A stretch of DNA of 64,000 nucleotides from Mobula birostris (Eukaryota), in NCBI RefSeq assembly GCF_030028105.1, contig NC_092393.1, positions 55,865,121 through 55,929,120 of the forward strand, read 5' to 3'. The notes under the pieces were generated by a model. It had not been told where the DNA came from and searched no databases. It was given only the letters and a program-made list of their open reading frames with translations. Below are positions 31,029 through 34,000 of this stretch, piece by piece. How positions within the stretch are numbered: the stretch's first letter is position 1; every line of letters starts with the position of its first letter. A program made the translations under genes and the position numbers.

Positions 31029-34000
31029 TTATTTTTGCATTCCACTATATGCAAGAGGCATAGGATAACCAGTTTGTGCTTGGAAACCCATTCCCATCAA
31101 AGGTGGGGGTGGATACTGGTACTGAGCTCCCACAGACTGTTGACCAATGCCATTGCTCTGCATGGCATTGGTACCAGAATGACCACTTGCAAACTGCTGG
31201 ACCTTGCTACCAACAGCCTTGTAACCATTTTGACTCTGATTGCCAAATGCATTGGTTCCCTGGTTTACAGATCCTGGAAAACTGGAATTTCCAAACCGAG
31301 CCAGATTTGGAAAGCTGTTCGTGGATCCAAATTTCCCAGAAACAAAGGCCGTTTGTTGGTTTGCAGAAGCAAAAGTCTGTGTAAAACCATTCTCTCTGCC
31401 TCCTGCTCCATATACCCTGTCCAAACTATCCCTATTCCTGAAACTGTAGCCTCCAATCCTGTTGGAACCAGAGAATCGGTCTCTTCTGTCATCACGGCGA
31501 TCATCTTTATAGCCACCTCTACTCCTGGAACGACCTGTCCAATTAAAATGTACAATTATTTATGATCAGCATATAATCATATACAGATTATTATGAAATC
31601 AAATGTCACTCTTAACTGGCTGGCTCAGATCAAACCAAACTTAAGACAACCCAAACTAGGACTTCAGGGTTTAAACACTTTCCACAAAACCACAGCAGTT
31701 TTAAATACAGGCTTAGTTCAGTTGGCCAAGCTGCAAGTTAATTTAACTGATTTATATTCAAATTCTATTTCATGCTTCCAACTTCAAGCTAATCCACTAC
31801 AGTTTATTCTGAGTACCCCACAAATGTTACCCTTTAATCCTCCAAGCCCCTTTAAAATCCAAGCTACAAGCATAAGTACTGAAATCCAGTTCAACTAGAT
31901 GTAAAATGCAAATTGTGATTTTAAGTAGAATTTTTTAAAGAAGATTTTACCTGAACCTCTGTCTTCCACCATCTGAATTAGCTTTGGGTTGATAGCCTGA
32001 TTTGCCTCACGAAGCACAGAGATAAGGTCATTTGCCTGCTTTATGTTGCCAGGAGTAAAGAACGTGTAAGCGGTGCCAGTTTTGGAACTGCGGGCAGTTC
32101 GCCCAATGCGGTGAATATAGTCTTCAGAGGAGTTAGGGTAGTCATAATTGATGACAAATTTCACATCTTCAACATCTGTAAAGTGTTGCAGTGTTGCAAA
32201 AGCAGGCGCATGTTATGCACACCACAACAGTCAGATCAAAAACAGAAGTTAGCAAGTGAGCAAACAGCCGCAGCATCAATGACTGTAAAGCAAACGTTAA
32301 AACAACCCTTAGTTCAAATCTTGCGGGAATACTACTGTGGGAAGAGAAAACAATGCACACTCCCCTTAAAAAAAAAAAGAACAACCCAAAAATCAGAGAT
32401 ATTTTGAGATCTTACCATTGGGAGTATGCATTCACTAGTCCATTCCCAAGTCAGCGAACTCCCCACATGTTATCAAGTGACATCCGGATGCTTCTATACA
32501 GTTGGGGCCACTTTGTACATTGTTGCCTCTTCATGTGCCATTCAGGACCTTATAACAGTCAGGCAAGGTCCTTCCTACACATTCATGAGAAGCTCAGGAT
32601 TCAGGCCACACTGCATGTCTTGCCAAGACCAAAATAGACTACAATTAAACAGAGCCCAATGGACACCTACATCCCCAGCACTTCCCTACTCAGGTTTTCC
32701 TTTTGACATCTTGTCTAGGCAAGCACTTCTAAGAAGCCAGTGTTCACTTGAGAAAATGTCTCTGTTTGGCAGGTCCCGACATGACTAATGTACACTAGGT
32801 GAGGGAGGAACTTCAGAAATTATGAGGGCATTACACTGCTAGATTCAATGTTAACTAATCTACCAATCTTTCACTAACTTGTGCCAGTACTCACCACCAA
32901 TTTCTGGGAAGGAGCTTACTGAGGTTAACTTGGCTCTCCATTTGAAAAAACACATGAAGCAGTGAACAAAGTTTAACAATAAGACACTTGTTCGACGCAC
33001 CATTATTTTGGTAAACTTGCTAGCTTTAAAAAAAATTAGCTAAGCAAAATGGGGGAAAATGAAACCAGGGCATATCCTGAGTAATCAAAAAAAAAGTAAA
33101 CAAAAGAACCAAAGTTTTAATGAATGGTAAGTGCTTCACGTCATCCAGGGCGAGAACAGATTTTAGGGTGGCGGGTAAATGTTGACCATTCCGCCTTTTG
33201 AAGATTACTGGCACAATGCTCCCTCTGTTCAGCATCTTTGTATTCGACTGGGTAGCTGCCAGCCGATCACATCGATTTGTCCTCCTTCCCCCTCTCGCGT
33301 CCTCGAACTGTCATGCCTAGGCCCTGCCACAAAGACTGCACCTTTACACAACTTAGAAAAAAAAATGCAAAGACACGTTAAAGAAAGCAATAGTATACTT
33401 TCTTTAAATCTTTGAATAAAGTGGAGGAAAGTCACAAGGTGGACTGGCATTACTAACCTAAACCTCTGGAAGCAACATCTGTCGCAATAAGGATTGGTGC
33501 TTTGCCTGACCGAAACTCTAATTGGGGAGAAAAGAAAAAGTTAAATAGTGCATATTCAGAAATGCTTAAAAGATAAAGCTCAAGCTGGTGAATCACTTAC
33601 CATTTAGAACCCAGTCACGCTCTGGCTGACTCTTGTCCCCATGAATGCACATTGCCGGCCACCTACAAATCAAGAAAAGATACAAATGAAAAATCTAGAC
33701 CTGGAAAGAAAAAAAATCTGCATCTTATTTAATAAGTCCAGTACTTCATTTCTCAGACATGATTTCACTTACTTTTAGAAACTAGATACTTGGTGCATGA
33801 GTAATTCATAGACTCTCACTTCATAGCCCCCTCCATAATCTAACTAACCAGTCACATGCATTGCTCCAAGTCTTTCCATCATTTCACAAATGTGATTCAG
33901 CAGGCTAGAAATACATTAGTAAATCTCAATTGCTAATTTGTCACCATATTGTCAACCCTAACAAAAAACATTATGCTGTAGGCACAATGCATATGCTGAA

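What the first reader, a model, noticed from the sequence alone, without database searches (positions are those of the whole stretch)
32176..32290. mir-3064-like hairpin looks like a splice-site switch: distal branch point, AG-free zone, altered seed
Seen (minus strand): a branch-point-like GCTAAC (A at 32249) and pyrimidine tract TTCTGTTTTTG sit 73 nt upstream of the exon-12 AG, with no AG in between. The gap is filled by an 11-bp stem (UGUUGUGGUGU/ACACUGCAACA) that would bring the tract next to the AG. A competing acceptor TTTGCTTTACAG at 32283-32284 would add 107 nt and shift the frame. Relative to recalled human miR-3064-5p (UCUGGCUG...), the seed differs here (UCUGACUG...) while the stem is kept. 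Inference: the conserved function is an RNA structure controlling intron-11 splicing, plausibly sensed by the DDX5 helicase itself, rather than miRNA targeting.
Basis: partly seen in the sequence, partly recalled or inferred. Interest (0 to 1): 0.7.

Follow-up and report, generated by a model that had tools for sequence, protein, structure and literature searches.

The report
MicroRNA hairpin doubling as splicing bridge
The end of intron 11 of the RNA-unwinding enzyme gene DDX5 carries the hairpin catalogued in mammals as microRNA-3064, and its position behind an unusually distant branch point, echoed in the sister gene DDX17, suggests it is likely kept mainly as a fold that would bring that branch point within reach of the splice site.

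Summary
This is the 3' end of DDX5 intron 11: branch-point motif at -74, pyrimidine tract, 105-nt AG-free zone, and an 11-bp stem orthologous to mir-3064 (Rfam E 1.2e-9, below gathering score). Published human lariat tables put 407 of 417 listed lariats at the orthologous distal site (-79/-80). A fish-like DDX5 locus and this genome's DDX17 paralog keep the motif, tract and both stem arms. Their loops differ (26, 38, 49 nt), yet the predicted folded distance stays 31-34 nt. Both microRNA seeds are changed here, outside the core stem. Best reading: a conserved stem that likely bridges a distal branch point to the AG in a slowly spliced, often retained intron. Not shown: no compensatory pair in 3 sequences, the stem is only marginal in long-context folding, and sensing by DDX5 is untested. 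The mammalian microRNA is real but modestly expressed. This scan found the same idea before in a skate DDX17 (e1-8611275). My paper searches found no such description for DDX5.

The parts
33458..33517 (-). DDX5 exon 11 (60 nt)
   Evidence: spliced joints of introns 9 and 10 seen in 3 of 4 runs laid
32176..33457 (-). DDX5 intron 11, 1282 nt (human 1236 nt); retention gives a stop in the second codon after exon 11
33282..33344 (-). intron block shared with DDX17 intron 11 (78% over 63 nt, E 3.6e-6), next to an acceptor-like site
32602..32635 (-). second intron block shared with DDX17 intron 11 (82% over 34 nt, E 1.5e-4)
32410..32470 (-). conserved block ending in an internal 5' splice site (cut 32416|32415)
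   Evidence: 45 of 61 nt identical to L003; a 1071-nt contig of run X17 ends exactly at 32416
32322..32362 (-). conserved internal acceptor-like block, tandem AG (32336-32335, 32333-32332)
   Evidence: 38 of 41 nt identical to L003; use not shown
   Evidence: 8 of 21 nt identical to L003
32178..32282 (-). AG-free zone, 105 nt
32248..32254 (-). distal branch-point motif, branch A 32249
   Evidence: kept in L002/L003 and DDX17; orthologous human A mapped by lariat reads
32237..32247 (-). pyrimidine tract directly behind the branch point
   Evidence: 75-84% pyrimidine between branch A and stem in 3 of 3 sequences, with changed letters
32219..32229 (-). 5' arm of the core stem (within the miR-3064-5p homolog; seed change at 32231 lies just outside)
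32184..32194 (-). 3' arm of the core stem (within the miR-3064-3p homolog; seed change at the bulge 32195)
32175..32237 (-). Rfam RF03840 mir-3064 match, 48.8 bits (gathering 76), E 1.2e-9
31951..32175 (-). DDX5 exon 12 (225 nt), acceptor AG 32177-32176

Best explanation
This is the 3' end of DDX5 intron 11, where a branch-point motif and pyrimidine tract sit about 74 nt from the splice acceptor and a predicted stem (the mir-3064 hairpin) likely folds out the gap so that the acceptor comes within normal reach. Steps: (1) shown for human, inferred by orthology here: branching uses the distal A; (2) shown in sequence: the tract lies behind the branch point, and the last 20 nt are a poor tract; (3) predicted: once U2 and U2AF hold the branch point and tract open, the core stem forms and shortens the path to 31-34 nt; (4) inferred: this arrangement makes the intron slow and easily retained, and retention or internal splice sites give stop-containing RNAs; (5) untested: DDX5 opening the stem would favour retention and so limit DDX5 and DDX17. 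The microRNA would be a secondary product of a hairpin that ends at the splice site.
For: Human intron is chr17:62496892-62498127 (PMC4737145 table). PMC5959240 File S2 lists 392 + 15 lariats at 62496970/71 (-79/-80), 6 at -33/-37 and 4 further upstream: 407 of 417 in the ranges searched. PMC4315302 Data S2 lists only 62496970-72 (A, A, T) in this intron. Fish-like locus L003: arms 23 of 25 and 19 of 21 identical, loop 3 of 10, branch motif kept. DDX17 paralog (L006; exon-12 peptide 103.6 bits to human DDX17 against 86.5 for the window's) has motif, tract and both arms with a 124-nt AG-free zone; local alignment score reached by 5 of 5000 shuffles. Branch-to-arm spacing 20/20/19 nt, loop 26/38/49, linear distance 74/87/100, folded distance 31/32/34. 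Human DDX17: 43 of 67 listed lariats at 38884243/44, -123/-124 if the exon ending at 38884120 is exon 12 (inferred from its length). With branch point and tract held open the core stem has P 0.93-0.99 here and 0.90-0.99 in L003 over 5 window sizes. PMC1920232: partially spliced DDX17 and DDX5 RNA is cleared when DDX5 is depleted, the direction expected if unwinding removes a helpful stem.
Against: No pair with a change on both sides among 10 pairs in 3 sequences; 8 never vary, 1 changes on one side, 1 is broken in DDX17, so pairing is not shown by covariation. Without constraints the core stem has only P about 0.1-0.8 here in windows of 120-600 nt, and fell below the 0.08 listing threshold in 1 of 10; an upstream 7-bp helix competes. 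In DDX17 the model prefers a shifted register (core register P 0.00; any downstream register 0.43-0.85). Across whole introns blastn scores the DDX5/DDX17 match at only E 0.079, while control intron 7 reached E 0.03. Invariant arm letters, including tandem G-U pairs, point to a sequence constraint (microRNA or protein). Distal branch points can work by scanning without a stem (PMC5378181 passages). My simple U2-pairing score did not rank the distal site first. No lariat, structure or mutant data for this species.
Confidence: 0.6

Rival explanations
1. The hairpin is conserved because it is a microRNA precursor (miR-3064); the branch point is distal only because the hairpin occupies the normal place, and this lineage has a drifted seed.
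For: Human and mouse arms identical; 2840 and 4852 reads, 382 and 914 from Ago-IP; 'saddle-shaped' conservation noted (PMC4556696 supplements). The 5p seed is shared by human, mouse and L003. Arms invariant, loop free.
Against: Both seeds are changed here at places outside the core stem. DDX17 keeps the arms and the human-type 5p letters with a 49-nt branched loop. HeLa Ago1-4 counts 10, 2, 0, 0. Saddle-shaped conservation is also expected of a cis-acting stem.
Confidence: 0.17
2. The distal branch point works by scanning to the first AG, as in other AG-free-zone introns; the arms are conserved as protein-binding sequence or as a barrier that slows the second step, not as a bridge.
For: Tract adjacent to the branch point and a long AG-free zone are the scanning-type layout (PMC5378181 passages). 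No covariation. A predicted 5-bp outer helix pairs with the acceptor AG (P about 0.7 here, 0.95-0.98 in L003, short context). Human lariats at this site (407) far outnumber those listed for intron 12 (34), as a stalled intermediate might give.
Against: Constant folded distance despite 26-49 nt loops. A barrier opened by DDX5 would increase splicing, opposite to the direction in PMC1920232. Lariat counts also depend on stability and detection.
Confidence: 0.18
3. The stem at this site is neutral to regulation; retention and feedback are set by other conserved parts of intron 11 (internal donor 32416, acceptor 32335, the 5' block shared with DDX17).
For: Those blocks are as conserved as the hairpin. 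A contig of run X17 ends exactly at the internal donor. Not exclusive with the best explanation for steps 1-3.
Against: Does not explain why both paralogs keep complementary arms at fixed spacing from the branch point.
Confidence: 0.05

Closest known systems
mir-3064 (Rfam RF03840; annotated 5'-tailed mirtron in DDX5 intron 11; PMC4556696, PMC4807562)
   Same: Same gene, intron, position and arms; hairpin ends at the acceptor.
   Different: Below the Rfam gathering score, both seeds changed, shorter loop with one upper-stem pair lost. Human 3064-5p was made without splicing in a minigene (MUT/WT 173%), so the mirtron route is not validated.
Distal branch points with AG-exclusion zones (PMC5378181, PMC5959240)
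   Same: Branch point 50 nt or more upstream, adjacent tract, long AG-free zone, retained intron (39.5% of branch points in frequently retained introns are distal against 9.5% in constitutive ones).
   Different: Here the distal site is the dominant one (407 of 417 in human) and the gap is filled by a conserved stem.
Stems that bridge branch point and 3' splice site (yeast and growth-hormone cases cited in PMC5378181's discussion; originals not read)
   Same: Structure shortens the path from branch point to AG.
   Different: Those were shown by mutation; this is predicted, lies in a vertebrate paralog pair and coincides with an annotated microRNA.
Plant DEAD motif in DRH1/RH46 (bioRxiv 10.64898/2026.01.23.701338; PMC12218528)
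   Same: Conserved intronic hairpin in the DDX5-like helicase and its paralog, tied to unproductive splicing and helicase feedback.
   Different: DEAD is a 19-20 bp hairpin with a 3-5 nt loop that hides an alternative acceptor. Here a 10-11 bp stem with a long loop lies between branch point and the productive acceptor. No homology tested or claimed.
Intron-mediated feedback of DDX5/DDX17 and yeast DBP2 (PMC1920232; Barta and Iggo 1995, title only)
   Same: Same genes; DDX5 depletion clears partially spliced RNA.
   Different: The passages read name no cis element; this stem is a candidate.

Membership tests
mir-3064 microRNA family (RF03840) | Score at or above Rfam gathering threshold | tested here: not met
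   48.8 bits against 76; E 1.2e-9
mir-3064 microRNA family (RF03840) | Orthologous position at the 3' end of DDX5 intron 11 | tested here: met
mir-3064 microRNA family (RF03840) | Seed identical to mammalian 5p and 3p | tested here: not met
   one change in each seed, 32231 and 32195; single assembly
mir-3064 microRNA family (RF03840) | Precisely processed small-RNA reads from both arms in this species | not testable with these tools
   only assembled contigs were offered
5'-tailed mirtron | Hairpin 3' end at the splice acceptor | tested here: met
5'-tailed mirtron | Splicing-dependent processing | not testable with these tools
   human minigene result was negative (PMC4807562)
Distal-branch-point / AG-exclusion-zone intron | Branch point 50 nt or more from the AG | tested here: met
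   motif at -74; human orthologous A mapped at -79/-80; not mapped in this species
Distal-branch-point / AG-exclusion-zone intron | Long AG-free zone and tract next to the branch point | tested here: met
   105 nt
Structure-bridged 3' splice site | Folded branch-to-AG distance in the normal range | tested here: met
   31, 32, 34 nt in 3 of 3 sequences, assuming the core stem; prediction only
Structure-bridged 3' splice site | Compensatory base changes in the stem | tested here: inconclusive
   0 of 10 pairs in 3 sequences; too few sequences
Structure-bridged 3' splice site | Stem mutation impairs, compensation rescues splicing | not testable with these tools
   needs a minigene
Plant DEAD motif | Single 19-20 bp hairpin with an alternative acceptor inside the stem | tested here: not met
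   10-11 bp core, 26-49 nt loop, no alternative AG inside
Plant DEAD motif | Splicing shift depends on the host helicase's activity | not testable with these tools
   only indirect human data

The most novel reading that the evidence does not exclude
The mir-3064 hairpin is a helicase sensor older than the DDX5/DDX17 duplication: the stem is needed to join a distal branch point to exon 12, DDX5 unwinds it, the intron is retained, and so both helicases are limited. The microRNA arose later or incidentally from it. This would be the animal counterpart, with opposite logic, of the plant DEAD motif and would name the cis element behind a feedback known since the yeast DBP2 work.
Probability: 0.25. 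Interest if true: 0.75.

Novelty: new member of a known kind. Interest (0 to 1): 0.52.

Why it matters
DDX5 and DDX17 are major splicing helicases whose conserved intron 11 is known to be retained and tied to feedback, but the papers I could read name no cis element. This finding gives a 75-nt, directly mutable candidate, shows that public lariat tables already place the branch point behind it, and suggests that an annotated conserved microRNA may be conserved for splicing. Experiments that delete or edit mir-3064 would then also disturb DDX5 splicing.

Tried and rejected
Rfam at gathering threshold over the whole window: 0 matches. Second copy of the element by DNA search in the own genome: only the window; the DDX17 copy was found through the protein. 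A mutually exclusive pairing of the 5' arm with the conserved acceptor block at 32335 (-11.8 kcal/mol, also in L003) was considered and rejected as chance-level: 53 of 100 shuffles did as well. Reading G to A at 32231 as a compensatory change: depends on register (Rfam's register makes it a mismatch), not claimed. U2-pairing score: uninformative, it ranked sites in the 3' arm first. Sequencing runs: 22 listed, no RNA holder on record; 4 of 22 laid. None showed contigs over 32182-32415, so the hairpin, the 32283 and 32335 acceptors and the partner of the internal donor remain unread; 3 of 4 showed no cover of intron 11, which proves nothing. Contig depths in X17 (158 for intron 11, 254 for exons, about 5 for intron 9) are not used as levels, since one figure per contig cannot rank parts. 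L002 and L003 are nearly identical over the intron and count as one sequence; the single metagenome scan gave only these 2. Not held: Moore 2011, Rossler 2000, Barta and Iggo 1995. PMC5378181 supplements: files 13-27 not searched, no hit in the rest. PMC5959240 Files S1 and S2 and PMC4315302 Data S3 gave nothing or are cut when stored, so donor-branch pairs were not seen and lariat counts may be incomplete. PMC4556696 alignment figure unreadable as text. PMC3431481, PMC7518892 and bioRxiv 2021.07.28.454226 and 2021.10.18.464728 had nothing on this element.

Full report
Locus. The minus strand from about 40590 to 31030 holds a 13-exon DDX5-subfamily helicase gene. Its exon peptides match DDX17, DBP2 and DDX5 structures. 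The second copy in the genome (G000:C13, L006) matches human DDX17 better over exon 12 (103.6 against 86.5 bits), and the window carries the mir-3064 match, so the window is DDX5 and L006 is DDX17. The finding is the last 115 nt of intron 11 (33457-32176, 1282 nt).

Observation. Branch motif, tract, 105-nt AG-free zone, 11-bp complementarity and the frameshifting AG at 32283 are all present. The AG-free run is the longest of 535 gaps in the gene. A helix of 11 bp or more arose in 13 of 1000 shuffles, but total folding energy is modest (z -1.2 to -2.3). Rfam finds mir-3064 at 32175-32237 with E 1.2e-9 and 48.8 bits, below the gathering score of 76. Against the human and mouse arms in PMC4556696 (supplement rows) both seeds differ by one letter: at 32231, just outside the core stem, and at 32195, the bulge.

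The branch point is real in human. The human intron is chr17:62496892-62498127 and is retained at 0.11-0.26 in erythroblasts (PMC4737145, one table passage). From the spacing in the window I predicted a branch A near 62496969-70 before searching. PMC4315302 Data S2 lists 62496970, 71 and 72 (A, A, T) and nothing else in that intron. [quoted passage not shown] That file is cut when stored (78,541 rows held), so rows may be missing. For this species it is inferred.

Conservation. One scan of metagenome contigs gave 2 loci, L002 and L003, nearly identical over the intron and fish-like by my reading of the exon peptide (inferred). Identity to the window: branch motif plus tract 13 of 17, 5' arm region 23 of 25, loop 3 of 10, 3' arm region 19 of 21. 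L003 has the mammalian letters at both seed positions. The DDX17 intron 11 of this genome (6065 nt) ends with the same parts: branch motif at -100, tract, both arms, 124 nt without AG. The local match was reached by 5 of 5000 shuffles; over whole introns blastn gives only E 0.079, and a control intron gave E 0.03, so position and the second arm carry the argument. DDX17 has G at the position changed here, so A is likely derived. Geometry: branch-to-arm 20, 20, 19 nt; loop 26, 38, 49; linear distance 74, 87, 100; folded distance 31, 32, 34. In human DDX17, 43 of 67 lariats listed in 38884100-38884399 lie at 38884243/44. That is -123/-124 if the exon ending at 38884120 in PMC12750866 (one table passage) is exon 12, which I infer from its length.

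Structure. Between branch point and exon the core stem forms with P 0.93-1.0 for most pairs. In windows of 120-600 nt without constraint it falls to about 0.1-0.8, and below the 0.08 listing threshold in 1 of 10, because an upstream 7-bp helix and a short inner hairpin compete. Holding the branch point and tract unpaired, as bound factors would, restores 0.93-0.99 here and 0.90-0.99 in L003. DDX17 prefers a shifted register (core 0.00, any downstream pairing 0.43-0.85). Of 10 pairs in 3 sequences 8 never vary, 1 changes on one side, 1 breaks, none is compensatory. The fold is plausible but unproven.

Competing sites. The 32283 acceptor is not conserved in sequence (8 of 21), while an acceptor-like block at 32335 (38 of 41) and a donor block at 32416 (45 of 61) are. 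I laid 4 of the 22 listed runs. Three show spliced joints of introns 9 and 10, so they are RNA by inference. One (X17, another organism) has a single contig from 30 nt inside exon 11 to exactly 32416, with 11 substitutions and 3 gaps in 1071 nt, against 23 and 19 in 284 nt for intron 9. Thirty letters is one short of the tool's bar for bridging. The exact end at a conserved donor hints that this donor is used; its partner was not seen. Every alternative form translated (retention, 32283, 32335, 32332, donor 32416) has an early stop.

Mechanism. U2 and U2AF likely bind the distal motif and tract. The stem would then fold out 26-49 nt plus arms and present the AG at a normal distance. Such distal sites are enriched in retained introns (PMC5959240 passages), tend to splice late, and secondary structure has been suggested to bridge such gaps (PMC5378181 passages). 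PMC1920232 (passages) reports that partially spliced DDX17 and DDX5 RNA is cleared at low DDX5. If DDX5 acts by unwinding this stem, the stem must help splicing, which fits a bridge and not a barrier. That DDX5 acts here at all is untested; the other conserved blocks are equal candidates. The plant DEAD motif (bioRxiv 10.64898/2026.01.23.701338: abstract, first part of results and passages; PMC12218528 passages) shows such sensing in the plant DDX5 homolog, with different anatomy.

The microRNA. Mammalian reads exist (2840 human, 4852 mouse, with Ago-IP reads), and the seed is shared with L003, so targeting cannot be dismissed. A human minigene made miR-3064-5p without splicing (PMC4807562 passages). 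The paralog copy and the two seed changes argue that targeting is not the oldest constraint.

Prior description. Ten searches (listings, with passages as cited) found no paper linking the mir-3064 hairpin to the distal branch point. Three key older papers were not held, subscription papers are not searched, and unseen supplements may bear on this. After I had found the DDX17 copy, the scan's notes showed the same reading for a skate DDX17 (e1-8611275) and a second structure in the 5' half of the intron (e1-10274899). These are unreviewed notes, not independent support.

Verdict. A real, ancient element; known as mir-3064; likely a structure-bridged distal branch point (0.6); helicase sensor 0.25; interest 0.52.

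Noticed in passing
window 32416|32415 and 32336-32332 (minus): A conserved internal donor and a conserved tandem acceptor 81 nt apart could form a small intron inside intron 11; a contig of run X17 ends exactly at the donor.
   Followed up: partly
window 33344-33282, 32813-32797, 32723-32712, 32635-32602; L006 3652-3711, 5636-5652, 5776-5787, 7136-7169: Four colinear blocks shared by DDX5 and DDX17 intron 11; the first follows a pyrimidine run and an AG in both genes. The middle two are individually weak (E 0.96).
   Followed up: partly
window 32285-32279 with 32232-32226 (minus): The lineage-specific A at 32231 makes a perfect 7-bp helix with the 32283 acceptor region that would enclose branch point and tract; L003 has a different helix of similar effect.
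   Followed up: partly
window 32236-32232 (minus) with the exon-12 acceptor: A predicted 5-bp outer helix covers the acceptor AG in the window and in L003 in short-context folding.
   Followed up: partly
L006 9479-9500: DDX17 has its own 9-bp inner hairpin inside the enlarged loop and a second possible register for the 5' arm.
   Followed up: no
L002 and L003, beyond about 835 and 900: The two loci are nearly identical through intron 11 but diverge at the end of exon 12 and in intron 12: chimeric assembly or duplicates.
   Followed up: no
human DDX5 introns 11 and 12 (PMC5959240 File S2): 407 lariats at the distal site against 34 listed for intron 12; may reflect a stalled or stable lariat.
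   Followed up: no
window 4000-28000: Long G-rich skew on the plus strand with a G-rich tandem array at 8372-8581 and several stop-free frames of 150-260 codons; not identified.
   Followed up: no
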